Shown: positions 4,289 to 37,237 of the stretch, piece by piece | How the letters are laid out: each line of letters starts with the position of its first letter | How positions within the stretch are numbered: position 1 is the stretch's first letter | Virus genome (UHGV): UHGV-0387525 | Reading direction: 5' to 3' (one strand) | DNA length: 41,290 nucleotides | Source: a virus | The notes under the pieces: generated by a model | Seen by the model: the letters and a program-made list of their open reading frames with translations, nothing else | Databases searched by the model: none | Told to the model about the DNA's origin: nothing | Program-made: the position numbers and the translations under genes

Positions 4289-4931
4289 TAAATACACACT
4301 AATCTATGCAGATCCACCCTGGGTATACCGGGACAAAGCCGCAGATGGTAATCGCGGTGCCGGTTTTAAATATCCGGTTATGAGTGTGCTGGATATCTGC
4401 CGCCTTCCTGTGTGGGATTTGGCCGATGAAAACTGTCTGTTGGCCATGTGGTGGGTGCCAACACAACCACTCGAAGCACTAAAAGTTGTTGAAGCCTGGG
4501 GATTCCGTCTGATGACGATGAAGGGCTTCACGTGGATAAAATGTGGTAGTCGACAACCAGATAAACTGGTTATGGGTATGGGACACATGACTCGCGCCAA
4601 TAGTGAAGATTGCCTGTTTGCGGTAAAGGGAAAACTACCTACGCGCATTAATGCAGGGATCGTTCAGTCATTTACCGCACCGCGGCTTGAGCATTCAAGA
4701 AAGCCAGATATCGTTCGTGAAAAACTTGTGCAATTATTAGGCGATGTTTCTCGCATTGAACTGTTCGCCAGCCAGACGTCTCATGGTTTCGATGTTTGGG
4801 GTAATCAGTGCGAAGACCCGGCAGTGCAACTACATCCTGGATACGCGTTGGATATTGGCGGATTAACAAATGCATTCAGCAATGCTCCGCTGTCACCAAC
4901 AGACAACCAGGGGCGGGAGCGTGCAGCATGA
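4281..4931 (+). CDS. MT-A70-family N6-adenine DNA methyltransferase
   Basis: DPPW motif ([10 protein letters not shown]); GGGGTGG RBS before ATG 4281; stop overlaps next start (ATGA). Confidence 0.8.
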
Positions 4932-24537: not shown

Positions 24538-27008
24538 CAGAATCCCCCAACAGTAAGGCGAGGAATAACGGCAAGAACAGACAGCGGCAACGGGTCAAGC
24601 TGACGGATTTTTACACGTTCGTTTTTGCCCCAGTTACTGTCCAGTTTCACTTCTACTTTTCCGGTAGCATCATCAACAGGATCATCGTAGAACTCGAATT
24701 CACGCTGTGGATATTCGTACCATTTGCCGCCGGGCGTAGTCGCCCAGATGCCGCGACTGGCATTCACAACCAGAGTAACGGACGGGATCACCTGTTTTTT
24801 GTCCAGCAGCGTTTCCTGTCCGTTAATGTTGATATCCAGTGTTTCGAATTCAGCAGTTATTGGCAGGCCGATGTGCACAACAGCCCCAGGTGATTCCAGC
24901 GTGACGGCACCTCCGGAAACCACTTTCTGTGGTTCCACGTTCGCATCAGAGAGAATGTTTACGGTCTGGCCTTCAAGATGAGACAGGCCTCCAAATGTCC
25001 GGCGCGCCATCTGCCAGTTCGTGGTAGCCACATTCCTGAGGGATGGTGGGACGTTCCTGTTAGGACGAACCACTACAGCGGTATTGCTGGTTACAGAAAT
25101 AATGTCGCAACGTAATTCTTTTGACACTTCATCGCCAGTATCAGGATCAGTTCCGGTATAAGGGAACTGTAGTTGCGCGCCGACATCACTACTGGTGAAG
25201 TACGCACCACCAGAAACACTGATTGTATATTCCTCGCGGTAATCCCATTCGCCAGAACCACCAGTGATGATCATCGTTCTGTCAGACGTATTTCTTCCAT
25301 CATAGCTAAGGCCAGAATCAACAAAGAAAGCATCTTCATCGCTGGTAAATAAACGGCTGGACAGTCGCTCGATGTATCTCACTGTTTGCCCGTTAACGGT
25401 TCGGTTAACGACGAAATACACCGCATCTTCATTGCCTTCGCTGATACTGCATGTGCTTTCATATTTTCCGGTACTGGATTGTGGTGCCCATGCAAAAACC
25501 TGCTGATCACGCAAATAGGTCATCACCAGTAATTTACCGTCATCACGGATGCAGAAGGCGCTGGAGTAAGGGACTATTGAGAAGCACCAGTCAACAATGC
25601 TGTGCTTCTGAAAAAGATGATTGGCAAGGATAGTAAGGTCGTTCCCCTGATAGCCGTCAACATCGAATGAGTAGGCCAGATCACGGACAACACTGCCTTT
25701 CTCCTGGACGAACAGAGCAATATTCGCCACGGCAATTGGTGGGACATTGCTCGAGCCATTTGATCCCTGAGAGCTGAATGCAAATGATGATGGGGTAAGC
25801 ACTTTGTTCTGGTCGCCAGTGATGACGTACTCACCTCCGGAAGTCAGCGCCACCAGCGAACCAACATCAATCAGGTGGCGGATCTCATTAACCTGACGCC
25901 CGGCATAGGTGTAGATAATTCTGTCGTCATCCTGCGTAGGATTGCTTTTGCCAAAATCCTTATAATCCCCGGTACGGCTGGCCCAGATAGTCTGAGGAAA
26001 CGCAGTCGATGCGGCGAAGTAAAGACGTTGTTGATAATAAACAACAGTGCCAGGATAACCATTAACACTGTTCCAGGCATATTTAGCCCATTTATAGCTG
26101 GCATTATCCTCGCCAACTACCTGCGAAGGGATATAGGAAATCACCTCGGCAGTTGCAGTAGTTCCATTTGCAGCAGAGATACGGGCAATGCCAAAACCAC
26201 TGTGCAGATACTCCCACTCAATGCCGGTATCATCATCACCGGATCCGCCCCAGCCATCCCATGATGTGCCTTCTGTATGCGAAGGGCGCAAAGTGCCTGT
26301 TTTGCCTACTGTAACGGCGCGATAGTAGTTACTGTCTGCACGGCGAATATCGCCAATTGACGTACTCTTACTGGTTTCCCATACCGGCACAGAATCCACT
26401 GCAGGCTGTTCCAGATAGAACAATTTGCCTACCTGCTCCGCGCCAAAAATAGAGGCGCTTGCCGTTAACGTAATTGTCCCGGTGCTGGCGCTGGCATAAA
26501 CCGTCACTGACTCGTCAATATTGATATCTTCAAATGGTCCGTTCTTCGTTACCACATCAACCAGTTGCCAGTTGTCATGCGCATAGCGACGCAACTCTTT
26601 CGGCGGGTATGCCGGATGAACAAGCGTAAGCACGTCGGCGCTTTGCGTGAATTTAATTCGGAACAGATCGGCTTCAGTATATGGCGTGGCAATTTCATAA
26701 ATAACATTGCTGCTGTTCAGCACCAACGCACCATCTTTGATAACGCGCATGTACTGGTGTCCGAACTCCAGAGCATAGGTCTGAACCGTCGAGAACTGGA
26801 ACGGGATCAGGCGGCATTTCCGATTTGGGTATTTGGCGGCACCGACAAAACGCGTACCTGGTCGATTCTCAACGCCGCCATACTGCCGCACGATAAAGTT
26901 ATCGCACTTGCGCAATGCCACCTGGTACTTCGCCATGTCAATACGCCCGTACAACGACGGTCCAATCTCACCACCGGCAAAGCTGGGCTGGATCCAACTG
27001 ATAGCCAT
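24537..27008 (-). CDS. tail tubular protein B / nozzle (T7 gp12-like)
   Basis: 823 aa; size, position after gp11-like gene, N-terminal GGEIGPSLYGR pattern. Confidence 0.55.
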   Translation of the reverse strand: MAISWIQPSFAGGEIGPSLYGRIDMAKYQVALRKCDNFIVRQYGGVENRPGTRFVGAAKYPNRKCRLIPFQFSTVQTYALEFGHQYMRVIKDGALVLNSSNVIYEIATPYTEADLFRIKFTQSADVLTLVHPAYPPKELRRYAHDNWQLVDVVTKNGPFEDINIDESVTVYASASTGTITLTASASIFGAEQVGKLFYLEQPAVDSVPVWETSKSTSIGDIRRADSNYYRAVTVGKTGTLRPSHTEGTSWDGWGGSGDDDTGIEWEYLHSGFGIARISAANGTTATAEVISYIPSQVVGEDNASYKWAKYAWNSVNGYPGTVVYYQQRLYFAASTAFPQTIWASRTGDYKDFGKSNPTQDDDRIIYTYAGRQVNEIRHLIDVGSLVALTSGGEYVITGDQNKVLTPSSFAFSSQGSNGSSNVPPIAVANIALFVQEKGSVVRDLAYSFDVDGYQGNDLTILANHLFQKHSIVDWCFSIVPYSSAFCIRDDGKLLVMTYLRDQQVFAWAPQSSTGKYESTCSISEGNEDAVYFVVNRTVNGQTVRYIERLSSRLFTSDEDAFFVDSGLSYDGRNTSDRTMIITGGSGEWDYREEYTISVSGGAYFTSSDVGAQLQFPYTGTDPDTGDEVSKELRCDIISVTSNTAVVVRPNRNVPPSLRNVATTNWQMARRTFGGLSHLEGQTVNILSDANVEPQKVVSGGAVTLESPGAVVHIGLPITAEFETLDININGQETLLDKKQVIPSVTLVVNASRGIWATTPGGKWYEYPQREFEFYDDPVDDATGKVEVKLDSNWGKNERVKIRQLDPLPLSVLAVIPRLTVGGF

Positions 27009-27613
27009 CAGGACAACCTCGCAATGGTAAACTCGTCAACCGGTGGCTGTGGTTCCTGTGATTCATTCTGGCTATGCGAGCCAGCACTAAGAATCACGCG
27101 ATTGTACATATTGAGAGCAAATGTACCGAGATCCGCATTCCCAGTCAGCGCCATGTTAATGGCTGCCGCAAGACGCCAGGCCAGCGCCTCCATAAAAATG
27201 GCATCAAACATGTTTACATCTGAAACGCGAGAGACATACTTGAGCCATGCCTGCGGCTGGTCTGTGTAGATCAATTTTCCTGTTCCGTTGGTGTCTGCAC
27301 CAACTTCGTACTGAACGCGCATTGCTGCTGTTGGATTGCGTACACCAGGAAGCATAATTTCAGTAATGCGCAGACAATCTGACGGGTACTGGTACGCATA
27401 TTCCCAGTCAGGCGGTGGATTGCTCGTATCTGCAAGCGCCACGCGTTTGGTAGCAAAGTTCCAGTCAAAATCAGAAAGCACAGCATCACGGCAGGCCTCA
27501 AAGTGCAGCGAACATTCCCCCGCTTCCTTGCTGGCTTCCGTCAGGCTGTTAATGCTGCGGCTGTTGCCAATATTGGACAGCGCACGATTGCAGATCTCTA
27601 CTACAGAGGCCAT
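27008..27613 (-). CDS. tail tubular protein A / adaptor (T7 gp11-like)
   Basis: 201 aa; ALSNIGNSRSINSLTE resembles gp11 N-terminal ILASIGEPPVSTLEG. Confidence 0.55.
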   Translation of the reverse strand: MASVVEICNRALSNIGNSRSINSLTEASKEAGECSLHFEACRDAVLSDFDWNFATKRVALADTSNPPPDWEYAYQYPSDCLRITEIMLPGVRNPTAAMRVQYEVGADTNGTGKLIYTDQPQAWLKYVSRVSDVNMFDAIFMEALAWRLAAAINMALTGNADLGTFALNMYNRVILSAGSHSQNESQEPQPPVDEFTIARLS

Positions 27614-27669
27614 AAGTTTCTATACTCCTGCAATAAAGGGGCCGAAGCCCCTTGTCTGATTCGCGAGGC

Positions 27670-28014
27670 TTACACGCCCAGTTCTTTACGCTTATCTGCG
27701 ATCTTCTCGCGTAGCGTTTCGGCTTTGGCGTTATGGTGTGGCTTCTCGTTAAAGAGCAATTCGTACTCTTCACGGAGCTTATCCAGTTCACCATCATCTG
27801 ACACATCGTTGATGATTTTGGTGCTGGTTGCTGCCATTGACACCTTTCCTGCAACTTTTGCTTTTGCCTGTCTGGCTGCATCGTTAACAGGTTCCAGTGC
27901 GCTACCAGGCTCACCTTCGTATTCGATTTCTGCCCCCTCCGGCCACAGAGTGTTATGGATATGAGAGAGGCGCAGAACGCGGTATCTTGGTTTCTCACCT
28001 GACATCGATATCAC
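27670..28014 (-). CDS. hypothetical virion-module protein
   Basis: 114 aa ORF between capsid and tail genes. Confidence 0.35.
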   Translation of the reverse strand: MISMSGEKPRYRVLRLSHIHNTLWPEGAEIEYEGEPGSALEPVNDAARQAKAKVAGKVSMAATSTKIINDVSDDGELDKLREEYELLFNEKPHHNAKAETLREKIADKRKELGV

Positions 28015-28015
28015 C

Positions 28016-28453
28016 TTAACCAGTTACTTTTGAGCGGATCGGGTACGGCGTATTGGCATCAACATCCAGACTGATACCCGCAGTGAATTTGCCAGCCGTT
28101 AGTGGGCCAGTTGCGACGGAGTAGTTAACACGCAGATATCGCTGAACACCGGCAGGCACCTTTGCAGAAACAACTCGTTTACCTGCTGTCAGGGCGGTCT
28201 TTGCCAGTGCGCCACTATCATAAATAGTGGTCCATGAGCTGTTATTCTCACTCGTCTGCAACTGGATGTTTACAGTTGCATCACCGCTTGCCGCGGCGGC
28301 TGCGTTAACCAGCGCCCAAAACTCAAGCGGGTAACCCACGCCGATATCACGACGTTTTCCGTCAATTGGACCGAGATCGATTACGTCAGTAGAAGCCGCG
28401 GTATTCGTAACCGCCTGAGCTTCGGAGAACATCAACAGTTTGTCGGTGATCAT
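28016..28453 (-). CDS. hypothetical virion-module protein (possible minor capsid/decoration)
   Basis: 145 aa ORF immediately downstream of major capsid gene. Confidence 0.35.
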   Translation of the reverse strand: MITDKLLMFSEAQAVTNTAASTDVIDLGPIDGKRRDIGVGYPLEFWALVNAAAAASGDATVNIQLQTSENNSSWTTIYDSGALAKTALTAGKRVVSAKVPAGVQRYLRVNYSVATGPLTAGKFTAGISLDVDANTPYPIRSKVTG

Positions 28454-28504
28454 CTTCTTTCTCCATTAGTGGGTCTGTTACGACCCACAGGTTAATAACA
28501 GGCG

Positions 28505-29497
28505 TTACACCACGCGGGCTTCTGTTTCCAGAAGCGCATCAGTTTCACGGATTGGTACACCACGGAATGAAGTCCACCACTCGCCTTCAGTCTCTTTTAC
28601 GCTGATAGCCAGAGATGTTTTCTCCAGAGATTGCAGATCAAGAGCCTGGCCTACAGTGCGGTTCATGTAGAACACCGGGCGGCCCATGCCACGGTTTGGA
28701 ATGCGATGCAGTGCCTTAACCATCAACTTGGCAATATTTGCGGCAGAGGATGGTTCTGAAAGATTGCTGACATCGATGTTTGCAATGCGAACAACATAAC
28801 GCCAGTCACGCAGAGCAAGTCCGTTGTCCCATTTATAATGGGTGCGATAACCTTCGTACTTGCCGCCATTAGCATCTTCCAGTGTCACCTGGCCTTTATC
28901 TTCCATCTGGATGCCAGCCTTCTTCCCTTTCGGGAAGATGCCATGCACGGTGTTTTCGCCCCACACCACTAACCAGATTGAGGTGTTATCTGTACCCGTG
29001 CCACCAGCATCAATGATGTTCTGAGCATTACCCGCAGACAGGCTGGAATAGCGGGAGGACAGTCCCATAAACTGCTGAGGGTTAACGCTGGAATCACCAT
29101 AAAACAGCGTCTGCGCCATCTGCTGATTCATCGCTTCAATAAATGCGCGGTCTTCAGACAGGCGGAATTCAGCGGTATTGCCGTTCAGATCAGCCAGTGA
29201 CTTATCGACTTCAGCATAGGTTTCCAGCATGCCAACGGAATCGGTTACCTGCACTGTGGTTGATTTGCTTGGCTGTACGCCATAGTTCAGCAAACGCCAG
29301 GTAGCTGAAGGTAAACCAGAACGAATGGTGGTTCGGTGTCCGGTAGGAAGGTTCCCTTCGACAAAAGGCATATCCTGAAGGATCGGGTTAGTTTGACCGA
29401 GAAGCTCGATAATCTTATCGACTTTCCCGTTTGGATCGACGCGCTTACCCCAGTCAGCCAGCGTCAGCGCAGTTAAGCCTTTAACAGCCATTGTCAT
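28505..29497 (-). CDS. major capsid protein
   Basis: 330 aa; position after scaffold; strong AGAGAGGAA RBS. Confidence 0.65.
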   Translation of the reverse strand: MTMAVKGLTALTLADWGKRVDPNGKVDKIIELLGQTNPILQDMPFVEGNLPTGHRTTIRSGLPSATWRLLNYGVQPSKSTTVQVTDSVGMLETYAEVDKSLADLNGNTAEFRLSEDRAFIEAMNQQMAQTLFYGDSSVNPQQFMGLSSRYSSLSAGNAQNIIDAGGTGTDNTSIWLVVWGENTVHGIFPKGKKAGIQMEDKGQVTLEDANGGKYEGYRTHYKWDNGLALRDWRYVVRIANIDVSNLSEPSSAANIAKLMVKALHRIPNRGMGRPVFYMNRTVGQALDLQSLEKTSLAISVKETEGEWWTSFRGVPIRETDALLETEARVV

Positions 29498-29505
29498 TTC
29501 CTCTC

Positions 29506-30207
29506 TTATTTGCCATAGAGCACTTCGGCCGCACTACGCTGGCCTTCATTACCACCGGTGACCATGCCATCTTCAGACATCGCCTTTCCGATTTTCACGA
29601 ACGTTTTGACCAGATCAGGGTGATTACCCAGCCCGGTGGTGTTCAGATATTCTTTGAGTTCAGGTGTCCCGAACTGGTCAAGCGCACGCTGTGCGGCGCT
29701 AAGGTTAGAAATCAACTTGTCGCCACCGATTTCTTTGTCAGCTTTTACATCAGCAGCCCACTGCTCGGTTGTTTTCTGCCAGGCTTCTGCCTGGCGCTGC
29801 TGCACACCTGCCAGAATCTTCGGATAAGCATCAACCAGCTTTTGCGCTTGCTCGTTGGTCAGGTTTAGTTCTCGCGCCACCGGCTCGAATTCCTTCAACG
29901 CTTCTGTATCCAGCTCTACGCCTTCGGCAGCCTGAAACTCGTACTTCTCAGGCGCACCCTCTGGTTTATCGCCGCCCTTTTTTTCATCCTGCTTATCGTT
30001 TTCAGGCTTTTTGTCATCAGCAGGTTTATCGCCATCAGCAACAGGTTGTGGCTTATCACCTTCCTGTTGTGATTGATCACCAACTGGAGCAGGGTTATCA
30101 CCTGCAGGCGCTGACGGTTCTGACGCAGCAGGAGCTGCTCCACCATCGACTGGTTGCTCATTGCAAAGACGGCGATACAGCAAACGCTCAAATAAATTCA
30201 TGATCAC
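29506..30207 (-). CDS. scaffolding protein
   Basis: acidic, low-complexity, Pro/Asp/Lys-rich N-half with helical C-half; between portal and capsid; start may be ATG 30201. Confidence 0.55.
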   Translation of the reverse strand: MIMNLFERLLYRRLCNEQPVDGGAAPAASEPSAPAGDNPAPVGDQSQQEGDKPQPVADGDKPADDKKPENDKQDEKKGGDKPEGAPEKYEFQAAEGVELDTEALKEFEPVARELNLTNEQAQKLVDAYPKILAGVQQRQAEAWQKTTEQWAADVKADKEIGGDKLISNLSAAQRALDQFGTPELKEYLNTTGLGNHPDLVKTFVKIGKAMSEDGMVTGGNEGQRSAAEVLYGK

Positions 30208-30500
30208 TCCTGTTCACTGGCCTCTTTGGCCATCTTCAAATACTGTTCAGGGCAATGCGCCATAACGCGCTGAAACAGTTCCAGCGCCAGATTGCGTTGC
30301 CCCTCATTAAATGCCATTGCCATAGCGTCCATCGGTGAGATAGCGGAAAACACACGGCCTTTCTCCAGCACCGACCAGACAACGCGACGCCCCTGTTCAC
30401 TGCTCATGACAAAGCGAATGTCATCAATTTCACGCTGTGCCATGTCACGTTGCTTACGGGCGTTTTCTTCTTTCAGTTGATCGTCTTCGTAATCTGTCAT
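30204..30500 (-). CDS. hypothetical head-assembly protein
   Basis: 98 aa, charged; coupled between portal and scaffold. Confidence 0.35.
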   Translation of the reverse strand: MTDYEDDQLKEENARKQRDMAQREIDDIRFVMSSEQGRRVVWSVLEKGRVFSAISPMDAMAMAFNEGQRNLALELFQRVMAHCPEQYLKMAKEASEQE

Positions 30501-32176
30501 TGTGATTGCCCACCCTGACCACTAACTGCATTCGCCATAGCTGACAAAACACTCGGATCCGAAGTTTTAGCTTCGCTTAGCGTCTTGGCACCCTGTGCCG
30601 CCGCCATCCCCATCGCCATCATTTGTTGCTGCTGTTGTTGCTGTGCCCGTTGCTGGCGAGCCTGCTCAACCTGTTCCTGCGGAACAATGACGGTTGGAGA
30701 CACTCCGGACATATCAGCGAATGCATCGATCGCCTGATCAACGTTGAGTTTGTCGAGAGCTTCTGGTTTCGCTTGCGCAAGTTGACCAATGAAGTTAACC
30801 GTGGACGCCAGACTGGACAGGCCGATAGACTTCTGCGCCTGAGCCATGACGGAAATGTATTCGACCTTCAGGGGCATGCCTTCCATCGCGTCAGGCGGTG
30901 GCGGCAGCATGTTTTTACGCACCATCATCGAGAAAGAGCGATCAATGAGAGGATTAAGACATTCGTCGTTCAGGCGCTCCAGAACCGGCCCCAACATCAG
31001 AAGTTTTTCTTCTTTCATTTCGATCACCGCTTCCACAGGCATCGAGCGGGTATTGATGTTCTGCAACATCATGAACAGATCGACAAAGTAGGCGCTGTTA
31101 ATGATTTGACGAGTGTCCTGAATGTCTGCCACCAAATCTGCTGTACTGGGGTTAACCAGATAAGCAGGCCTGAAACCATCCTGACCAGTAATCTGATCGA
31201 TATACGTGATGTCGCCAGGAAGAAGGGAGGCACGCTGATTCTTGAGGGAATTCGGAGCAACCATCGGCGGATTGGTGGCTTTATCAATCAACTGCGACTT
31301 GCGCTTCTGGAGAAGCTGCAATGCCTTAACAGGTCCAAGCGCCAGCATACCCGGGCATGATGATCCATAAACATCTTCGCCGTTAACTTCCCAGCGCGGG
31401 GCCATAATTGGAAACTCATCGAATCCGGACTCACGCAACAACTTGTCGTTATCGCCACCAACCTCGTAATAAACCGATTTGAATGGCTTGTTCTTGCTAT
31501 CCAGCTTCGATGTATCGCGGTCAATGTTCGGGTAAACCGAATGCATCACTTCAATCCACTTCTCGTAGGTTCCGCTTTCCCACATGCTTTTTACGGATTC
31601 GCTGACGTTATTTAGCCCGAACTCCTGAACAAGCTGACGAACAGTCATAGAGAACTTGCGAAAACAGGTGTCCACACTGCCACGAGGTGAGTTAGCCAGG
31701 TAGTAACTGCCTATCGGGAATGGCATTGTGCGAATGATGTCCTCGTCATCCTCCAGCACTGCCATTGCACCAGTGCTGTATGTGCCGAGGCTTCCGTATA
31801 ACTGCGGCAGCGACTGATAGAGATTCGACTTATTGAACATATCGTTCATGCGGTTCTGCACCGCCTCAAGCCACAACTTAACAGGGCCATAATCCATCAT
31901 TTCAGGATCTGGCGTAGCCAGGCGAAACCACGGACGCGCGGGGCTTGTGATGCCTGACATCATGCCGCTGGCGAGAGTGCGCGCCGCCATAGTCCCGGTC
32001 GAATCAATAATGCGTGTATTGCGTCGATCGTTACGGTTAACCTCAGAAGCCAGAAAGCGGGAACCACGCGGGTTGATGTAATCACTCAACTCGCGCCAGT
32101 GCGGCTCGAACGACTGACGCTCGCTTTCAAGTTGTGCGAACTGTTTGTTCAATCGCTCTTTAGTTGTTTCCGCCAT
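30497..32176 (-). CDS. portal protein (T7 gp8-like)
   Basis: 559 aa; Gln/Ala/Met-rich C-terminal tail resembles T7 gp8; follows terminase. Confidence 0.8.
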   Translation of the reverse strand: MAETTKERLNKQFAQLESERQSFEPHWRELSDYINPRGSRFLASEVNRNDRRNTRIIDSTGTMAARTLASGMMSGITSPARPWFRLATPDPEMMDYGPVKLWLEAVQNRMNDMFNKSNLYQSLPQLYGSLGTYSTGAMAVLEDDEDIIRTMPFPIGSYYLANSPRGSVDTCFRKFSMTVRQLVQEFGLNNVSESVKSMWESGTYEKWIEVMHSVYPNIDRDTSKLDSKNKPFKSVYYEVGGDNDKLLRESGFDEFPIMAPRWEVNGEDVYGSSCPGMLALGPVKALQLLQKRKSQLIDKATNPPMVAPNSLKNQRASLLPGDITYIDQITGQDGFRPAYLVNPSTADLVADIQDTRQIINSAYFVDLFMMLQNINTRSMPVEAVIEMKEEKLLMLGPVLERLNDECLNPLIDRSFSMMVRKNMLPPPPDAMEGMPLKVEYISVMAQAQKSIGLSSLASTVNFIGQLAQAKPEALDKLNVDQAIDAFADMSGVSPTVIVPQEQVEQARQQRAQQQQQQQMMAMGMAAAQGAKTLSEAKTSDPSVLSAMANAVSGQGGQSQ

Positions 32177-32190
32177 TTCAATGACTCCGG

Positions 32191-32397
32191 TTACTGACCA
32201 AGCAGCGTTTTACCGCTGGTATTAGCGGTTGATGTGTCGCCCTGAGAACCGGTAAGCAGCGTAGAACTACGACCAGCAGCAGCGCGACGGCGACGAGTTT
32301 CTTCGTCGCGGGCATCAACAACGGCGGCATCCTGCTCCTGTGGTGCTGCCTGAACTTCTGGTGTTGCAGGCACTGATGGTGAGCTACCCATGCACAT
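32191..32397 (-). CDS. small low-complexity hypothetical protein
   Basis: 68 aa; its initiation region CGGAGTCATTGA-ATG is repeated at the portal start. Confidence 0.3.
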   Translation of the reverse strand: MCMGSSPSVPATPEVQAAPQEQDAAVVDARDEETRRRRAAAGRSSTLLTGSQGDTSTANTSGKTLLGQ

Positions 32398-32487
32398 ATC
32401 AATGACTCCGTACGCAATTAAATTATTACCAATTTAACCACATATGATTTATTTATCGTAGGTGGTTGACATTTAACGCACAAATTA

Positions 32488-32502
32488 TTACCTTTCAGGT
32501 AA
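32488..32502. promoter_or_regulatory. operator-like palindrome with upstream TTGACA
   Basis: ttacctttcaggtaa; TTGACA at 32466-32471. Confidence 0.6.
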
Positions 32503-32824
32503 CAAAAGAGTTCATTCCGGTTACTAACCTGACTGGCTTGTCGTTAAATTGAACAGGTGGAGTGAGCTTTTATTTTGAGCAGTACGGCGTATGGCACATG
32601 CGCCGATAGCGGTCTGGATACGTTTAAGGGGCACCCTCCCTGGCTGTGGCAAACGAACCAGGTAGCCGGAATGTGCAAGTCGAGCGGTTTTATTCCGCGC
32701 ACGGGGATTCACCATCCCGGCGATTCGGTGTGACGCCTCGGAAGAGACGAGGGTACAACGATGAGAGCATTTATGGAGCCGCGACAAAGTGTGGCGCCTT
32801 AACAGGCTAAGTGCTCTCAGCGTT

Positions 32825-32901
32825 GTGGCATTAGCTCAGTTGGACAGAGCAACCGCCTTCTAAGCGGTTGGTCGCAGGTTCGAATCCTGCATGCCACGCC
32901 A
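32825..32901 (+). tRNA. tRNA-Arg (anticodon UCU)
   Basis: manual cloverleaf: acceptor GTGGCAT/ATGCCAC, D-arm GCTC/GAGC, anticodon stem ACCGC/GCGGT with loop CTTCTAA, T-arm GCAGG-TTCGAAT-CCTGC, discriminator G, encoded CCA. Confidence 0.9.
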
Positions 32902-33062
32902 GAATCACGCCTAAGGACCGTGATGCCAGAAGTTCCAGGTGCTTGGCGGTGATAGTTTCCCTTGAAGGACTATCACCGCCCTTTTTACAGCAGGACGCCA
33001 TTGCGATGACTTCATGCTGTAAACCCGTACAGCCACGGAAGGCATAACTCATTGCTTCCAGT

Positions 33063-33088
33063 TCGCCCGGTTCGCCGGGCATTTTTTA
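33063..33088 (+). terminator. rho-independent terminator downstream of tRNA
   Basis: stem gcccgg/ccgggc, loop ttcg, then six T. Confidence 0.7.
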
Positions 33089-33098
33089 AGGTGAGATC

Positions 33099-33518
33099 AT
33101 GAAGACAATTGATATGTTGGCTAAGTATCTAAATGAATGGCCATTAAAATATTCTCGTATCGTTCAGGCTGAAGACTGCATTTTTTATGGCGTTTTTGCT
33201 GGTAATGAAATGCATTACGAAGTAATTCAGAGTGAGGGACTGGCCGGGTTAACTCTTAGCGAAGACCATGGTACTAGCGTTACGTTCCATGACTGGATAA
33301 CAGCACAACGTTCTGAAATGGAAAAAGGCGATGTTTTTGATATTTCTCGCGCTGTTTACGCTAAAGCAAAAAGTGATAATGATTACATGAGCGAACACTT
33401 ATACAACATGAAGTTACAATGCCTGCATGCGGCGCTTATTCAGAATGGGCACTTCGATAAAACAAGTGCCATCAATATTGCGGAAGCCATCAACGCTGGA
33501 TTTAATGCCATTAAGTAA
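33099..33518 (+). CDS. hypothetical accessory protein
   Basis: 139 aa; AAGGTGA RBS before ATG 33099; opposite strand to flanking structural genes. Confidence 0.5.
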   Translation: MKTIDMLAKYLNEWPLKYSRIVQAEDCIFYGVFAGNEMHYEVIQSEGLAGLTLSEDHGTSVTFHDWITAQRSEMEKGDVFDISRAVYAKAKSDNDYMSEHLYNMKLQCLHAALIQNGHFDKTSAINIAEAINAGFNAIK

Positions 33519-33522
33519 CACC

Positions 33523-33534
33523 GTGACATGTCAC
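33523..33534. repeat. 12-bp palindrome GTGACATGTCAC (copy 1)
   Basis: identical to 35974-35985; intergenic. Confidence 0.6.
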
Positions 33535-33538
33535 AAAC

Positions 33539-33566
33539 AGCCAGCCGATGAGCTGGCTTTGTTTTA
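33539..33566 (+). terminator. rho-independent terminator
   Basis: stem agccagc/gctggct, loop cgatga, then TTGTTTT. Confidence 0.55.
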
Positions 33567-33608
33567 TCCTCATCAGAGGATATCAACGACATTATCCCCA
33601 CCAGCGGA

Positions 33609-35084
33609 TTAAGCATATGGATCGTAATCTGTGATGGCCTTGCCTTGCTGGTTCTGCTGCCCGGGAATTCGCAGACGCTTCGACACAGGGAACGCAAACG
33701 TCAGCAGTAGCGCATCGCCTTTACCAGGAGAACGCCCAAGCCGCTCCTTGATATCTTCCTTCGGTTCGATAACGATTTTACCGTCCACTCGAACTTTGTA
33801 CTCTGCCGCAGACAGGTCGTCCGCTGTTTCCTGGTCATCCAGCATGCCGCCCAGCCTCAGCCATGTCTTGCATGAGTTGAACATCTCCCCACGCTTGTTG
33901 AGCATCTGCGGGTCAGTAGACGCGCCACCGAACGGAACAAGTTGCCATGTACGACCCCAGCCATCACCGATTGACTTCAGACCAGTTCCGTAACCGAAGT
34001 CGATGAACACTGCGTCAGCCTGGTACTGGTCTTCAAAGTCAGCGATACGCTTCGCCATAATCAGATCGTCAGTGGTCTTGTTGCCAGTCCACAGCACCTT
34101 ACTGTGCAGCCCCTGCCGCAGGTATATCACAGCGTCATCAACGCCGGAGTATGCCGGGTCAACGCCGATTATCACCGGAGCATGTGCAACCTGCGCAGCG
34201 GTTACCACCCGTTTCATTGCCTCGTCAGTAAGGCCGGTAGGGATAAACTGCAATTCAGATGCATCCGGGAATATGCCGCGCACACGGATTTTAACGAAGT
34301 CGCTGTCTTCCCCGTAGTCATCAACCCATTTCTGCAACTGCTGTTTGTTAGTGCCTTCCACCGTCCGGCTGTCAATCTGCGCAGTTTTCCAGCGGTGTTT
34401 ATATTTGCGGAAACATTCGCGAAAACGCCCGGTGTTACGTGTAGGGTTTCCGAACGCCACCCAGATAATCTCAGTGTCTTCGTCCGTAAGCGCACCCTCA
34501 GCAACTTCCCACACCAGATCCGCAATGTTCGACGCTTCATCGAATACCACGATGATGCGTTTGCGCTCGTTGTGTAGTCCGGCGAATGCCTCAGTGTTGT
34601 GCTCAGACCAGGGTATTGCGTCAGCCCGCCACCGCTTGTCGTGCCCAGGGTCATTGCTGTACATCGCGGTAGCGGTACAGGTAAACCAGTCTTTCGTGAT
34701 AGCAAGGTTCGACCACTTGATAATTTCCGGCCAGGTCTTCGTTCGTAGCTGGTTGTCGGTGTTGGCGGTCACCACGACCTTACAATCCTCGCAAGTGGAC
34801 ATGCCCCAGTTGATCAGCATTGAGATGAATGCGGATTTACCAATACCGTGACCAGAAGCGCGTGCCAACATAAGCGGCTGATAGCGCGTCTCTGGATTCT
34901 GCAGGTGATCACGTATCTCTCGGAACGCATCAGCCTGCCACTGACGTGGGCCGGTAGCATGTGCCAGTTCAGTCCCCTCTTCCCCCCACGGGAACGCATA
35001 GAGGGCATAGCCAAGCGGATCGTGAGTGAACCCTGCAATATCCTCGATTAACTGCTCTTCAGGAGATAACGCTGTATCTGTCAC
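33609..35084 (-). CDS. terminase large subunit
   Basis: 491 aa; Walker A-like ARASGHGIGKS; acidic nuclease-type C-terminal half. Confidence 0.85.
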   Translation of the reverse strand: MTDTALSPEEQLIEDIAGFTHDPLGYALYAFPWGEEGTELAHATGPRQWQADAFREIRDHLQNPETRYQPLMLARASGHGIGKSAFISMLINWGMSTCEDCKVVVTANTDNQLRTKTWPEIIKWSNLAITKDWFTCTATAMYSNDPGHDKRWRADAIPWSEHNTEAFAGLHNERKRIIVVFDEASNIADLVWEVAEGALTDEDTEIIWVAFGNPTRNTGRFRECFRKYKHRWKTAQIDSRTVEGTNKQQLQKWVDDYGEDSDFVKIRVRGIFPDASELQFIPTGLTDEAMKRVVTAAQVAHAPVIIGVDPAYSGVDDAVIYLRQGLHSKVLWTGNKTTDDLIMAKRIADFEDQYQADAVFIDFGYGTGLKSIGDGWGRTWQLVPFGGASTDPQMLNKRGEMFNSCKTWLRLGGMLDDQETADDLSAAEYKVRVDGKIVIEPKEDIKERLGRSPGKGDALLLTFAFPVSKRLRIPGQQNQQGKAITDYDPYA

Positions 35085-35677
35085 TGATTACCATCCTGAC
35101 GTTCTTTGAGTCGCTTCCTGGCTGCTGCTATGCGATCAGCAATTGTCACATTCACATTAACATCCAGGCGTTCTTTGAATGCGTTGACGTCGACGTGCTT
35201 ACCAATCAGTTCGAGGTTCTTCACCTTGTCAGGCCATTTAATTTTTTTGAGGATTGTCTCTATCGAATCCTCGTTCATGTTCATGATGGTCGATGACAGA
35301 TCAAAGCCGCTAAGCGTAGTGCGCCAGATTTTCGGCCACTCGCGGATTGGCTTAAGGCTCCCATCGTCGTTGAGGATGTCGATCACGTCCATCTGGTCGA
35401 TCTCCACCAGGCGCATGAGAACGTAATCAGCACTGACGCGCATTCGTTTGTTGCGCTCCTCCATCAACTCGGCAATCCGTTTCTGAATGCGTTCATCGCG
35501 CATCATGACACTGGCTTTAACTGCCGCTGTATTTGGGGAGAATCCTGCGTTAATCGCAGCCTGAGTCTGATTTTCAGGCGTTTTGATGTATGACTGGCAA
35601 TAAGCCTCCTGCATTGCTGTTAGTGGCTTAAATTGCGTTGATTTGCGTTTATAGGTTTTAGGTTCAGCAGGCATCAT
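35081..35677 (-). CDS. terminase small subunit
   Basis: start moved to MMPAEP (ATG 35677, GGTGG RBS); AAINAGFSPNTAAVKASVMMRDERIQKRI resembles small-terminase DNA-binding region; overlaps terL start. Confidence 0.65.
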   Translation of the reverse strand: MMPAEPKTYKRKSTQFKPLTAMQEAYCQSYIKTPENQTQAAINAGFSPNTAAVKASVMMRDERIQKRIAELMEERNKRMRVSADYVLMRLVEIDQMDVIDILNDDGSLKPIREWPKIWRTTLSGFDLSSTIMNMNEDSIETILKKIKWPDKVKNLELIGKHVDVNAFKERLDVNVNVTIADRIAAARKRLKERQDGNQ

Positions 35678-35684
35678 AACCACC

Positions 35685-35716
35685 GTGGTAATAGTTACCG
35701 TTGTGGTAATAGTACC
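35685..35716. promoter_or_regulatory. two direct repeats GTGGTAATAGT(T)ACC upstream of terS
   Basis: 35685-35699 and 35703-35716; contain GGTAA..TTACC half-sites in reversed order. Confidence 0.4.
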
Positions 35717-35720
35717 ATGC

Positions 35721-35746
35721 AAAATAAAGCCGCCATAGTTGGCGGC
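35721..35746 (-). terminator. terminator between small gene and terS
   Basis: stem gccgcca/tggcggc, loop tagt; on minus strand followed by TTTATTTT. Confidence 0.55.
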
Positions 35747-35751
35747 AGTAT

Positions 35752-35964
35752 TCAAAGTCCATCAAATTCATCGTAAAAACTCTCGTCAAGATACCCTTTC
35801 CATTTACCGCGAATGAAAATTACATCCTCGCCGCAAGGGTGCTGACTGTCGATAACTATATCCCTCCTGGCGCAACCATACTTATGCATGAGAAATTTAA
35901 CCTCTTTCGGAAAATTAGCTGAGTTATCTCTCATATCTTCAAGGTCGTAGCGTATTTTTGGCAT
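35752..35964 (-). CDS. small hypothetical protein
   Basis: 70 aa from ATG 35964 with AAGGTG RBS. Confidence 0.4.
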   Translation of the reverse strand: MPKIRYDLEDMRDNSANFPKEVKFLMHKYGCARRDIVIDSQHPCGEDVIFIRGKWKGYLDESFYDEFDGL

Positions 35965-35973
35965 AACACCTTC

Positions 35974-35985
35974 GTGACATGTCAC
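35974..35985. repeat. 12-bp palindrome GTGACATGTCAC (copy 2)
   Basis: identical to 33523-33534; between genes 35982..36323 and 35752..35964. Confidence 0.6.
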
Positions 35986-36323
35986 ACTATTAATTTCGTT
36001 TCATGCCAGCCTTTGGTCACCCAGCATTGCGAGTCACCATTACACGGGCATGAATTAACTGGAACTCTCTCGCCGCACTTACCGCAACGTTTTCTGCTGA
36101 TCGATTTTATACGCCCGCGCACCCGGGCATCATCCTGGCGGATCAGCAGCGCGATGTACTCGGCCATTTCATAGGGATCTCGACCAGGGCGCCGGGCGGC
36201 GCAGTTCCGCTCCAGCATTTCAATTTCCTGAGCATCAAGCACAATCTCCAGCTTACGCACACCAGATGCAGCTTGTCTGGCTCTCTGAGCGGCTTTGCGC
36301 TCTGCTGCTGATTTAGCCATCAA
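35982..36323 (-). CDS. basic protein with C-terminal Cys cluster (possible zinc-binding regulator)
   Basis: 113 aa; CGKCGERVPVNSCPCNGDSQC; upstream of packaging genes. Confidence 0.4.
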   Translation of the reverse strand: MMAKSAAERKAAQRARQAASGVRKLEIVLDAQEIEMLERNCAARRPGRDPYEMAEYIALLIRQDDARVRGRIKSISRKRCGKCGERVPVNSCPCNGDSQCWVTKGWHETKLIV

Positions 36324-36594
36324 TATTTACCTTTATCGCGTATACCTTTACCGGTTTATCGCCGAAGTGGGGATGTGTGATTGTCTTGATTTCATATCCG
36401 TCATACGGGACGTCAATTCTACGACTGGAGTCGTCGCGCTTCGGATATCCCTTTGTGATAATCAGTCGGTCATAATCCCTGAACATAATTCGCTTATTCC
36501 AGTAGTCATTACACAGGCGATACTCTTCCGTTTTCTCTTCGCGAATGATGGCATCGAAGTATTCACCTTTAACGGCTAGTTGCAGGTTAGCCAC
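36313..36594 (-). CDS. ASCH-like domain protein
   Basis: GTG start with AGGAGG RBS; LAVKGEYFDAIIREEKTEEYR matches ASCH-like pattern as I recall it. Confidence 0.45.
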   Translation of the reverse strand: MANLQLAVKGEYFDAIIREEKTEEYRLCNDYWNKRIMFRDYDRLIITKGYPKRDDSSRRIDVPYDGYEIKTITHPHFGDKPVKVYAIKVNIDG

Positions 36595-37237
36595 GATTAA
36601 CCTCCTGCTGCGGTGCTGCTGGCAGTGGCATCCAGTGGGTAATACTACCTGGATATAAACTCTTTGCTGGCCCCCAGTAGCCATCTGTATTAACACGCAT
36701 AACCTCACAGCCATCAAAACCATCAGTTACAAGAACGTATTCATAAGGTTCCGGCATCCTTTCGCTTACCGGAATCCAACCATCCGGAGTTACCGGATAG
36801 TTGCCAGCCAGCTCGTTCAACTTGTAAGTCTGGCTTACAGGTTCGGCACCATGAAGCATGGCGGCGCGGCAGGAGTTCCAGGCAAATAGTGCGGCTTCTT
36901 CCACTGAAGGCGGAGAGTATCGCTCGATAAACGCCTGTGCATTTGACAGCCTCCACTCATGAGGCAATACCGGCGCTGGCGGGGCGATGCGTCCAAGCAA
37001 CTTATTTACCTCTTTCGCCATCGCGTCATATTTATCTAAATAGCGATTAGCTTCTAAGCAGACTCGGTGCATCTGATCTGAGTTAACTCGTTTAACGGGA
37101 TCTGCTTCCAGCGATGCCAGTGCAATCCGTGCCAGTTCTTCCGCTTCTTCTGCTGGCAGTACAACGTTGCTACCCGGTCCGTATGTTTCGCGCCACTGCT
37201 TGATTGTCAGCAGTCGCCCTTTGGTAATAGTGATCAT
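36587..37237 (-). CDS. DUF551-like phage protein
   Basis: C-terminal WIPVSERMPEPYEYVLVTDG...THWMPLPAAP pattern. Confidence 0.5.
   Translation of the reverse strand: MITITKGRLLTIKQWRETYGPGSNVVLPAEEAEELARIALASLEADPVKRVNSDQMHRVCLEANRYLDKYDAMAKEVNKLLGRIAPPAPVLPHEWRLSNAQAFIERYSPPSVEEAALFAWNSCRAAMLHGAEPVSQTYKLNELAGNYPVTPDGWIPVSERMPEPYEYVLVTDGFDGCEVMRVNTDGYWGPAKSLYPGSITHWMPLPAAPQQEVNRG

What the first reader, a model, noticed from the sequence alone, without database searches (positions are those of the whole stretch)
33063..33566. Accessory gene placed directly behind a terminator and followed by its own
The 139-aa ORF (33099..33518, strong RBS) starts 11 nt after the tRNA terminator T-run and is followed by another terminator and the 12-bp palindrome. 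No promoter is visible between terminator and RBS, so expression would depend on read-through. The function is unrecognised; possibly an accessory or anti-defence gene.
Basis: seen in the sequence. Interest (0 to 1): 0.4.

Follow-up and report, generated by a model that had tools for sequence, protein, structure and literature searches.

The report
Swappable phage anti-defence gene cassette
The 139-codon gene is real, and it sits in a swap slot of an E. coli prophage where sister phages carry known immune-evasion genes, so it is a good candidate for a new way that phages disarm bacterial defences.

Summary
The ORF is 33099-33518. A GC hairpin plus T6 lies at 33065-33087 and ends 11 nt before the ATG, so there is no room for a promoter. 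A strong SD, the 12-bp palindrome (33523-33534) and a second terminator (33539-33566) are all present.

The window is a phiV10/epsilon15-like (Uetakevirus) prophage. The ORF lies on the opposite strand between terL and the portal gene.

It is a real gene: dN/dS is 0.19-0.41, homologues down to about 38% identity occupy the same slot, and it occurs in 117 of 5426 complete E. coli genomes. No Pfam, NCBIfam, PADLOC or PDB match was found, and the confident AF2 model has no fold match.

Comparison shows an exact cassette. Homology between sister phages runs up to the start codon and resumes at the stop codon. At least seven unrelated genes occupy the slot, including an Acb4-family (PF13876, anti-CBASS) gene and a Tad2-like (PF11195, anti-Thoeris) gene. 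One natural chimera fuses this gene's N-domain to Tad2.

Transcription most likely starts about 600 nt upstream at a promoter overlapped by a repressor-type operator. It then passes an unannotated structured RNA, tRNA-Arg and two terminators.

Best reading: an early, repressor-controlled anti-defence cargo gene of a new family. This function is inferred, not shown.

The parts
32467..32502 (+). Candidate promoter and operator of the unit. TTGACA at 32467-32472, then 17 nt, then TACCTT. This is overlapped by the inverted repeat TTACCTTTCAGGTAA at 32488-32502.
   Evidence: The block is conserved across E. coli, Salmonella, Klebsiella, Leclercia and Citrobacter relatives. TTACC-N5-GGTAA occurs 15 times in the window against 0.73 expected. 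The sites flank the HTH (Cro/C1-type) gene at 461-1045. The consensus promoter scan did not call this promoter because the -10 is weak.
32581..32824 (+). Unannotated conserved structured-RNA element that abuts the 5' end of the tRNA.
   Evidence: No Rfam match at E<=1. Invariant sequence blocks occur across genera. On 22 representatives, 98.8% of cells pair against 24-38% when the partner is slid, and 8 pairs show compensatory changes. MFE z-score is -2.9. Present in 1064 of 5426 E. coli genomes with nothing annotated.
32825..32901 (+). tRNA-Arg (anticodon TCT).
   Evidence: ARAGORN; Rfam tRNA model at 73 bits.
32945..32988 (+). Terminator T1: 14-bp hairpin followed by CTTTTT.
   Evidence: Compensatory stem variants occur in relatives.
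32984..33023 (+). Hairpin H2. Its 5' arm overlaps the U-run of T1.
   Evidence: Inverted repeat I4; present in the MFE fold; conserved in relatives.
33065..33087 (+). Terminator T2: GCCCGG-TTCG-CCGGGC, then A and T6. This is the 5' boundary of the cassette.
   Evidence: The compensatory variant GCCCAC/GTGGGC occurs in 8 of 32 loci, and a T-run always follows.
33088..33098 (+). Shine-Dalgarno sequence AAGGTGA plus spacer. It is shared by every cargo allele.
33099..33518 (+). Cargo gene, 139 aa, phrog_4846. Residues 1-75 form an N-terminal alpha/beta domain, 76-92 a disordered linker, and 93-137 a C-terminal helical hairpin.
33523..33534 (.). 12-bp perfect palindrome GTGACATGTCAC. This is the 3' boundary of the cassette.
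   Evidence: It follows the stop codon of every cargo family found. It is conserved in relatives.
33539..33566 (+). Terminator T3: 7-bp hairpin followed by TTGTTTTA.
   Evidence: Identical in phiV10 and PAS61. In phiV10 it is annotated as a terminator on the other strand.
35974..35985 (.). Second exact copy of the palindrome. It starts at the stop codon of the gene 35982-36323 (-) and lies upstream of terS.
   Evidence: A second copy in the corresponding position is seen in 7 of the 9 related loci checked.

Best explanation
The ORF is the exchangeable cargo gene of a conserved transcription unit in phiV10/epsilon15-like temperate phages. The unit lies antisense to the late operon, between terL and the portal gene.

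Order of the unit: sigma-70-type promoter overlapped by a repressor-type operator (32467-32502); a structured RNA of about 245 nt; tRNA-Arg; terminator T1; hairpin H2; terminator T2; SD; cargo ORF; 12-bp palindrome; terminator T3.

Shown:
- The gene is real and under purifying selection.
- Its boundaries coincide exactly with the breakpoints of homology between sister phages.
- At least seven unrelated genes use the same SD and the same downstream palindrome.
- Two of those seven are members of known immune-signal sponge families (Acb4, Tad2).

Inferred:
- In the lysogen the phage repressor shuts the promoter.
- On infection or induction the unit fires early.
- A fraction of transcripts passes T1 and T2, either by leakage or because the upstream RNA makes RNA polymerase resistant to terminators.
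- The protein is then made early, at a controlled level.
- The protein is most likely an anti-defence (immune-evasion) factor of a new family. Its N-terminal alpha/beta domain would carry the specific activity, binding a defence protein or an immune signal. The C-terminal helical hairpin, which is shared with proteins that have other N-domains in the same slot, would serve as a common assembly or oligomerisation module.
For: Real gene:
- dN/dS is 0.19-0.41 against four homologues.
- 103 homologues were found, all enterobacterial. Relatives down to about 27% identity exist. The most distant one whose context was read, at about 38% identity, is in the same slot.
- The exact protein is on 469 contigs, and the gene is in 117 of 5426 complete E. 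coli genomes.
- The SD is strong.

Cassette:
- The window, phiV10 and PAS61 are near-identical up to the SD and start codon, and again from the TAA onward, but unrelated or diverged in between.
- Across 32 loci there are 7 cargo families, each followed by ..CGTGACATGTCAC.
- The ORF is 39.8% GC against 47.8% for the window and about 55% for its neighbours.

Anti-defence slot:
- PhiV10p03 matches PF13876 at E = 6e-35. PF13876 is the Acb4 anti-CBASS sponge family.
- Another allele matches PF11195, Tad2-like, at E = 3e-24.
- An in-frame chimera joins residues 1-73 of this protein to a Tad2-like domain in E. coli PF9285 and on 6 further contigs. Fusion to Tad2 or Acb4 is how Sequestin was discovered.
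- Domains are shuffled. The C-terminal hairpin is shared with proteins that have other N-domains, and an optional third domain exists.

Early, repressor-controlled expression:
- The operator motif occurs 15 times against 0.73 expected. The sites cluster around the HTH gene and at several other places in the window.
- The promoter and operator block is conserved across genera.

Terminators are functional structures: compensatory changes maintain both hairpins.

RNA element: covariation supports a structure. In lambdoid phage 2H10 it lies directly behind a TTGACA-16-CATAAT promoter and ahead of a T1-like hairpin and the early-left genes.
Against: - There are no transcript or protein data and no functional assay.
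- Guilt by position is indirect. Other alleles of the slot, including a membrane protein matching a PHROG annotated 'protease' and 86-aa and 143-aa proteins, are uncharacterised and could be defence or exclusion genes.
- The N-domain::Tad2 chimera is rare (1 of 5426 complete genomes; 7 contigs). It may simply be a by-product of cassette recombination.
- The -10 element is weak and the scan did not call the promoter.
- Assigning TTACC-N5-GGTAA to the repressor rests on site positions only.
- Convergent late transcription could silence the unit.
Confidence: 0.5

Rival explanations
1. Lysogenic-conversion or defence moron. The gene is expressed from the resident prophage at a low level through leaky terminators. 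It benefits the host, for example by excluding other phages or changing cell physiology.
For: The host element is a temperate phage. The gene has low GC and its own downstream terminator. It is carried as a chromosomal prophage gene in 117 E. coli genomes. Attenuated expression behind terminators suits a gene needed in small amounts. One alternative allele is a membrane protein matching a PHROG annotated 'protease', a type sometimes tied to exclusion (from my own knowledge).
Against: No PADLOC match. The protein has no signal peptide or membrane segment and is mildly acidic and soluble. The only candidate promoter carries the same operator as the regions around the HTH gene, which predicts repression in the lysogen. 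Two sister alleles are anti-defence sponges, which act for the infecting phage.
Confidence: 0.2
2. Phage-internal regulator or helper. The protein acts on the phage's own development, for example as an anti-repressor, a packaging or terminase helper, or a factor acting on the tRNA or on the structured RNA next to it.
For: It lies between terL and the portal gene. The palindrome that follows it recurs upstream of terS. It shares a transcription unit with an RNA element and a tRNA.
Against: It is on the opposite strand to the morphogenesis genes. In viable sister phages such as phiV10 it is replaced by unrelated genes, so it is dispensable. It also occurs in units that lack the tRNA. No HTH or nucleic-acid-binding domain was detected. 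It contains no AGA or AGG codons that would link it to the tRNA.
Confidence: 0.12
3. Silent or decaying ORF. The two terminators really do block transcription, and the ORF is a remnant carried along by recombination.
For: It sits behind two canonical intrinsic terminators with no promoter of its own. Truncated and frame-shifted copies exist (P0086-P0091).
Against: dN/dS is well below 1 while dS reaches 0.6-1.8. Full-length copies are kept down to about 27% identity, and one at about 38% identity is still in the same slot. The SD is conserved. The terminator-SD junction is kept for all seven cargo families, including bona fide sponge families that must be expressed.
Confidence: 0.05

Closest known systems
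Acb4 (anti-CBASS 4, Pfam PF13876); the local example is PhiV10p03 of phage phiV10
   Same: It occupies exactly the same cassette: the same T2-SD junction upstream and the same TAA-palindrome-T3 downstream. It is also a small soluble phage protein of about 120-140 aa.
   Different: There is no meaningful sequence relationship: BLASTP aligned only 19 residues at E = 0.006, and Pfam gave no hit. No fold relationship was detected. Ligand binding was not tested.
Tad2 (Thoeris anti-defence 2, Pfam PF11195 / DUF2829)
   Same: A Tad2-like gene is another allele of the slot. A natural in-frame chimera joins residues 1-73 of this family to a Tad2-like domain.
Morons and accessory-gene hot spots of temperate phages (the HK97/lambda concept, as summarised in PMC3573123)
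   Same: It is an extra, dispensable gene of deviant GC content. It lies between essential genes, on the opposite strand, with its own terminator, and it varies between related phages.
   Different: It has no private promoter. The gene is fed through two terminators from a shared upstream unit under operator control. The swap boundaries are exact at the start and stop codons and are marked by a conserved palindrome.
HK022 put RNA (cis-acting processive antiterminator); relevant to the upstream RNA element only
   Same: The arrangement is promoter-proximal structured RNA, then intrinsic terminators, then genes that must be expressed. In lambdoid phage 2H10 the element is placed as I recall putL/nutL to be placed in HK022 and lambda, and no N-like gene is annotated between it and the early-left genes.
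   Different: It is about 245 nt rather than about 70 nt. An nhmmer search of the two HK022 stretches fetched (records 25500-30000 and 32000-37000) found no similarity, but the put sites were not located in those stretches, so this test is weak. Activity is untested.
The C1-controlled ban operon of phage P1
   Same: It is a repressor-operator-controlled unit that mixes tRNA genes, accessory genes and the same RNA element, which lies between trnI and ban and is unannotated there.
   Different: It belongs to a different phage family and has a different operator sequence. In P1 the element follows a tRNA rather than preceding one, and no terminator-like site was found directly after it.

Membership tests
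Phage accessory gene / moron cassette | Dispensable: replaced by unrelated genes at the same position in closely related genomes. | tested here: met
   phiV10, PAS61, SPN9TCW and 32 IMG/VR or genome loci carry 7 cargo families at this position.
Phage accessory gene / moron cassette | Own transcription signals (promoter and terminator). | tested here: inconclusive
   The downstream terminator T3 is present. There is no promoter between T2 and the SD. The only candidate promoter is 600 nt upstream and is shared with the RNA element and the tRNA.
Phage accessory gene / moron cassette | Base composition differs from the neighbouring genes. | tested here: met
   The ORF is 39.8% GC. The window is 47.8% and the flanking terL and portal genes about 52-57%.
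Known immune-signal sponges (Tad2 PF11195, Acb4 PF13876, Sequestin PF21825) | Sequence or profile membership. | tested here: not met
   Pfam scan found 0 families at E<=1. hhalign against a Sequestin alignment gave probability 0.2-0.3%. BLASTP against PhiV10p03 aligned only 19 residues.
Anti-defence gene (by functional criteria) | Positional equivalence to known anti-defence genes in sister genomes. | tested here: met
   Acb4-family and Tad2-like alleles occupy the identical cassette.
Anti-defence gene (by functional criteria) | Found fused to a known anti-defence domain. | tested here: met
   An N-domain(1-73)::Tad2-like protein of 168 aa exists (WP_250205060.1). It is rare: 7 contigs, and 1 of 5426 complete genomes.
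Anti-defence gene (by functional criteria) | Homo-oligomer with a ligand pocket, or direct binding to a defence protein; inhibition of a defence system in vivo. | not testable with these tools
   Only a monomer AF2 model was available. No multimer modelling or assay was possible.
Bacterial anti-phage defence systems (PADLOC) | Match to a model of a known defence protein. | tested here: not met
   0 families at E<=1.
Intrinsic (Rho-independent) terminator: T1 and T2 | GC-rich hairpin immediately followed by a U-run on the transcribed strand, conserved as a structure. | tested here: met
   Hairpin energies are -8 to -12 kcal/mol for T2 and -16 to -23 kcal/mol for T1. Compensatory stem changes occur and a T-run always follows. 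Termination efficiency was not testable.
put-like cis-acting antiterminator RNA (upstream element) | Lies between an early promoter and terminators that must be read through. | tested here: met
   True in the window and its Uetakevirus relatives and in lambdoid phages 2H10 and mEp460. Not true in P1.
put-like cis-acting antiterminator RNA (upstream element) | Homology to HK022 putL/putR. | tested here: inconclusive
   nhmmer found no hit in HK022 record positions 25500-30000 or 32000-37000. The put sites were not located in those stretches (the record's annotation is sparse), so it is not certain they were searched. Rfam found no hit in the window.
put-like cis-acting antiterminator RNA (upstream element) | Makes RNA polymerase terminator-resistant in cis. 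| not testable with these tools
   Needs reporter fusions or in vitro transcription.

The most novel reading that the evidence does not exclude
The ORF founds a new family of phage immune-evasion proteins with a fold not seen before. It is delivered by a mobile 'plug-and-play' expression module. The leader RNA of that module is unannotated, is present in about 20% of complete E. coli genomes, and also occurs in the P1 ban operon and in the early-left leader of N-less lambdoid phages. That RNA would be a new class of cis-acting antiterminator, which lets polymerase pass the two terminators guarding the cargo gene.
Probability: 0.2. Interest if true: 0.85.

Novelty: new member of a known kind. 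Interest (0 to 1): 0.6.

Why it matters
Anti-defence genes are mostly found by looking at variable slots next to known ones. This slot already holds two validated sponge families, Acb4 and Tad2.

In the 32 cassette loci sampled here, the gene studied is the commonest occupant (12 loci). It belongs to no known family and has a confidently predicted but unmatched fold.

It can be tested directly. Plaque-forming relatives that carry it exist (HEMP4, PAS61), and panels of defence systems are available.

If it does block a defence system, it adds a new inhibitor family. It would also validate a very sharply bounded cassette (SD on one side, palindrome on the other) that can be used to harvest further candidates from thousands of prophages.

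The way the gene is fed, through two conserved terminators behind an unknown structured RNA, also raises a question that can be tested: how do temperate phages time and dose such genes?

Tried and rejected
Searches for the protein's function that found nothing:
- Pfam, NCBIfam, PADLOC and PDB sequence searches with the single protein and with a profile.
- The first AF2 model, built on a shallow alignment, was poor (pLDDT 59). A deeper alignment from the 1.8-billion-protein representative search gave pLDDT 82.
- Foldseek against BFVD returned only uncharacterised proteins. Foldseek against the PDB returned nothing at E<=0.001. The AFDB library was unavailable.

Leads that were rejected:
- The large repeat proteins hit by the profile (P0123 and similar) are Ig-like repeat proteins. 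I treated these hits as spurious.
- I tested whether the C-terminal hairpin is a Sequestin (PF21825) domain, because the motif ...AINAGF.. resembles ..RIAGF... hhalign rejected this.
- I tested whether the RNA element is HK022 put. nhmmer found no similarity in the two HK022 stretches fetched, but put was not located there, so this is a weak negative.

Literature:
- The held supplements of two accessory-gene screens (Silas et al.) and of the sponge-prediction study (Tal et al.) do not contain the family.
- 'phrog_4846' appears in no held paper.
- The epsilon15 genome paper is not held.

Alternative readings of the DNA that were rejected:
- The T2 hairpin as a terminator for the opposite strand: no T-run follows it on the minus strand.
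- The ORF 32831-33082 (-), annotated in phiV10 as p04, as a real gene: it is antisense to the tRNA and the terminators.
Full report
**1. What is at the coordinates**

- The hairpin GCCCGG-TTCG-CCGGGC lies at 33065-33080. It is followed by A and six T's at 33082-33087.
- Eleven bases follow (AAGGTGAGATC) and contain a strong Shine-Dalgarno sequence.
- The ATG is at 33099. The reading frame is 139 codons long and ends with TAA at 33516-33518.
- The perfect palindrome GTGACATGTCAC lies at 33523-33534.
- A second hairpin with a T-rich tail lies at 33539-33566.

The consensus scan finds no sigma-70-like promoter anywhere in 32100-33900. There is physically no room for one between the T-run and the SD.

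One correction is needed. The tRNA-Arg(TCT) at 32825-32901 is followed first by a stronger 14-bp hairpin with a U-run at 32945-32988 (T1). The hairpin next to the ORF (T2) is therefore the second of two tandem terminators.

**2. Genomic setting**

The window is a phiV10/epsilon15-like (Uetakevirus) temperate phage of E. coli.
- The ORF is on the plus strand.
- terS (35081-35755), terL (33609-35084), a 68-aa gene (32191-32397) and the portal gene (30497-32176) are on the minus strand.
- So a plus-strand island of about 1.2 kb (32398-33608) lies antisense inside the packaging/head operon.
- The ORF is 39.8% GC, against 47.8% for the window and about 55% for its neighbours.

**3. Is it a gene?**

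Yes.
- It matches phrog_4846 end to end at E = 2e-89.
- It has 103 homologues, all from Enterobacteriaceae: Escherichia, Salmonella, Citrobacter, Klebsiella and Leclercia.
- Pairwise dN/dS against four homologues is 0.19-0.41, with dS of 0.6-1.7.
- An exhaustive profile search added relatives down to about 27% identity.
- Wherever enough flanking DNA was held to read the context, the gene lies in the same slot between terL and the 68-aa and portal genes. This includes a homologue of about 38% identity.
- The exact protein is on 469 contigs. The gene is in 117 of 5426 complete E. coli genomes, always on the chromosome.

**4. What the protein looks like**

No Pfam, NCBIfam, PADLOC or PDB sequence match was found, whether with the single sequence or with a profile.

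With a deeper alignment, AF2 gives a confident model with mean pLDDT 82.
- Residues 1-75: a compact N-terminal alpha/beta domain (helix, four strands, helix; pLDDT about 86-94).
- Residues 76-92: a disordered linker.
- Residues 93-137: a C-terminal helical hairpin.

The model has no convincing structural neighbour.
- Foldseek found nothing against the PDB.
- Foldseek against BFVD found only uncharacterised viral proteins.

The protein is soluble and mildly acidic, with pI 5.2.

The family is modular.
- The C-terminal hairpin (..LYNMKLQCLHAALIQNG.FDKTNATNIAEAINAGFDAIK) is shared at about 80% identity with proteins that have a quite different N-domain. These proteins sit in the same slot (P0092-P0100).
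- Some members add a third C-terminal domain, phrog_16206.

**5. The decisive comparison: an exact cassette**

Aligning the window with phiV10 and PAS61 shows near-identity through T1, H2, T2, the T-run and the SD, right up to the start codon. Near-identity resumes at the stop codon and continues through the palindrome and T3. In between, phiV10 carries an unrelated gene and PAS61 a diverged allele.

I extracted the gene that follows the conserved T2-SD junction in every locus fetched. This gave 32 cassettes in seven unrelated families, each followed within a few bases by ..CGTGACATGTCAC. The families are:
- this family (12 loci);
- PF13876 (10 loci);
- an alternative N-domain joined to the shared hairpin (3 loci);
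- a membrane protein matching a PHROG annotated 'protease' (2 loci);
- a 98-aa protein (2 loci);
- an 86-aa protein (1 locus);
- a 143-aa CxxC protein (1 locus).

**6. What the sister alleles are**

- PhiV10p03 matches PF13876 at E = 6e-35. PF13876 is the Acb4 family, viral sponges that sequester CBASS cyclic-nucleotide signals (bioRxiv 10.1101/2024.12.30.630793; 10.1101/2025.07.12.664507).
- The 98-aa allele matches PF11195, 'Thoeris anti-defense 2-like', at E = 3e-24.

So two of the seven families, and 12 of the 32 cassettes, belong to known anti-defence sponge families.

In addition, E. coli PF9285 carries in this slot an in-frame chimera. Residues 1-73 of the present protein, which is essentially its N-domain, are joined to the Tad2-like domain. 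That protein is on 7 contigs but in only 1 of 5426 complete genomes. Fusion to Tad2 or Acb4 is the criterion by which Sequestin was discovered. Here the fusion is rare and may be a by-product of cassette recombination, so I count it as weak support.

I tested whether the C-terminal hairpin is a Sequestin. It is not (hhalign probability 0.2-0.3%).

**7. How the gene is probably expressed**

Any transcript entering the ORF must pass T2. If it starts upstream of the tRNA, it must pass T1 as well. Both hairpins are maintained across genera by compensatory substitutions, and a T-run always follows. I therefore infer that they are functional structures and, most simply, real terminators.

The only conserved promoter-like element upstream is TTGACA (32467) - 17 nt - TACCTT. 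It lies inside a block that is almost invariant from E. coli to Leclercia. Its -10/+1 region coincides with the inverted repeat TTACCTTTCAGGTAA.

The motif TTACC-N5-GGTAA occurs 15 times in the window against 0.73 expected, and no shuffle out of 100 reached that number.
- The sites lie on both sides of the Cro/C1-type HTH gene at 461-1045. Downstream of the second pair come exonuclease (YqaJ) and RecT genes.
- A further site lies beyond the 5' end of the replication genes, and two more lie just downstream of them, ahead of the DUF1064 gene.
- Other sites lie at the 5' end of the terS ORF and at several further places.

By position this is the operator of a global phage regulator, most likely the prophage repressor. 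This is an inference. It predicts that the island is shut in the lysogen and fires early on infection or induction. That timing suits an anti-defence gene better than a lysogenic-conversion gene.

**8. The structured RNA between promoter and tRNA (outside the finding, but it bears on expression)**

Positions 32581-32824 hold an element with invariant sequence blocks and variable-length stems.
- Rfam has no match at E<=1.
- On 22 representatives no more than 93% identical, 98.8% of cells pair, against 24-38% when the partners are slid. Eight pairs show compensatory changes. The covariation score is 0.265, against 0.04 for the slid control and 0.11 for the shuffled control.
- Its 19-nt core occurs in more than 120 IMG/VR contigs.
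- The element is in 1064 of 5426 complete E. coli genomes, and PGAP annotates nothing there.

It also occurs in other phage families.
- In phages P1, P7 and D6 it lies between trnI and ban, inside the C1-controlled ban operon, and is unannotated.
- In lambdoid phages 2H10, mEp460 and cdtI and in Stx2c phages it lies just downstream of the cI-like repressor gene.
- In 2H10 it starts about 45 nt after a TTGACA-16-CATAAT promoter. It precedes a T1-like hairpin with a U-run and then the early-left genes yfdP, yfdQ and yfdR. No N-like gene is annotated in between.
- As I recall the lambda and HK022 maps, that is where nutL and putL lie.

I therefore propose that the element helps polymerase read through T1 and T2, in a put-like manner. 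This is a hypothesis only.
- An nhmmer search of the two HK022 stretches I fetched found no similarity, but I did not locate the put sites in those stretches.
- In P1 no terminator-like site follows the element.
- The activity cannot be tested here.

**9. The palindrome**

GTGACATGTCAC occurs exactly twice in the window, at 33523 and 35974. The chance of a second exact copy is about 0.0025 (my estimate: 41290 positions / 4^12). The search tool's shuffle control allowed up to two mismatches and was not significant on that looser test: 3 matches found, and 25 of 100 shuffles had at least 3. Two copies, in corresponding positions, are seen in 7 of the 9 related loci checked; the other two show one copy each.
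- The second copy begins at the stop codon of the gene 35982-36323 (-). It precedes an SD and a small 77-aa ORF upstream of terS. PAS61 and the Citrobacter prophage lack that small ORF.
- So the palindrome marks the 3' edge of genes next to variable slots, and the two copies bracket terS-terL.
- Whether it is a protein-binding site or a recombination boundary is unexplained.

**10. Verdict**

The 'accessory, read-through-dependent, possibly anti-defence' interpretation is partly supported and can now be stated more sharply. The ORF is the commonest occupant, among the loci sampled here, of a precisely bounded cargo cassette. Known anti-defence sponges are plugged into the same cassette in sister phages.

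My estimates for its function are:
- anti-defence factor of a new family: about 0.5;
- prophage-expressed defence or conversion gene: about 0.2;
- phage-internal helper: about 0.12;
- silent remnant: about 0.05.

It is a new family within a known kind of system. The feeding architecture and the unannotated RNA are the most novel aspects, and they remain to be tested.

Noticed in passing
window 32581-32824 (+); also L010 2998-3250, L134 2490-2680, and loci L012-L131: An unannotated conserved structured RNA lies directly 5' of the tRNA-Arg. It has no Rfam match and is supported by covariation. It is present in 1064 of 5426 complete E. coli genomes and in more than 120 IMG/VR contigs. It also occurs in the P1/P7 ban operon and behind the cI-like repressor of lambdoid phages (2H10, mEp460, Stx2c phages). 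It is a possible put-like antiterminator or processed ncRNA.
   Followed up: partly
window 343, 391, 1103, 1165, 6889, 12493, 13613, 13706, 14758, 32488, 35677, 35695, 39194, 39256, 41195 (each 15 nt): The inverted repeat TTACC-N5-GGTAA occurs 15 times against 0.73 expected. The sites flank the Cro/C1-type HTH gene (461-1045), and others lie near the replication genes, at the 5' end of the terS ORF, at the tRNA/cargo island and elsewhere. This looks like the scattered operator set of a global phage repressor, comparable to the C1 operators of P1.
   Followed up: partly
window 35974-35985 and 33523-33534: The 12-bp palindrome GTGACATGTCAC (14-nt direct repeat CGTGACATGTCACA) occurs exactly twice and brackets terS-terL. 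Each copy sits at or just after a stop codon, next to a variable slot. Two copies are seen in 7 of 9 related loci checked. Its function is unexplained.
   Followed up: partly
window 35677-35755 (-): The listed terS ORF starts at a TTG (35755). Its first 26 or so codons (..ITTTVTITTVV..) are encoded by two tandem operator-like repeats. The true start is probably the internal ATG-ATG (MMPAEPK...), with the operators lying upstream of it. The same long form is annotated in phiV10 and PAS61.
   Followed up: no
window 32831-33082 (-): This 83-aa ORF, annotated as PhiV10p04 in phiV10, is antisense to the tRNA-Arg and to terminators T1 and T2. It is almost certainly not a gene.
   Followed up: partly
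L141 1201-1707 (E. coli PF9285, NZ_CP038791.1): A natural in-frame chimera joins residues 1-73 of the cargo protein to a Tad2-like (DUF2829) domain. PGAP annotates it as 'DUF2829 domain-containing protein'. It is on 7 contigs in the large collection.
   Followed up: yes
L003 about 4440-4900 (Leclercia sp. W6, CP031104.1); also L006, L009, L010: Several relatives lack the tRNA. In its place they keep a closing stem, GTTGTGG...CCACAAC, around other inserts. In Leclercia the variable stem of the RNA element is several hundred nt longer than in the window. In that locus no terL gene is called between 5420 and 7947.
   Followed up: no
L004 4503-4775; L006 4630-5541; L008 4630-5124: Some cassettes carry a second plus-strand cargo gene after the palindrome. 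These are a 90-aa protein with no matches, and a 303-aa or truncated 164-aa protein (phrog_35327/13369). All are of unknown function and are further candidates from the same slot.
   Followed up: partly
window 32984-33023 and L002 (PAS61): The 5' arm of hairpin H2 is the U-run of T1. PAS61 has a 33-nt deletion between H2 and T2 and still keeps the gene, which argues against a private promoter in that spacer.
   Followed up: partly
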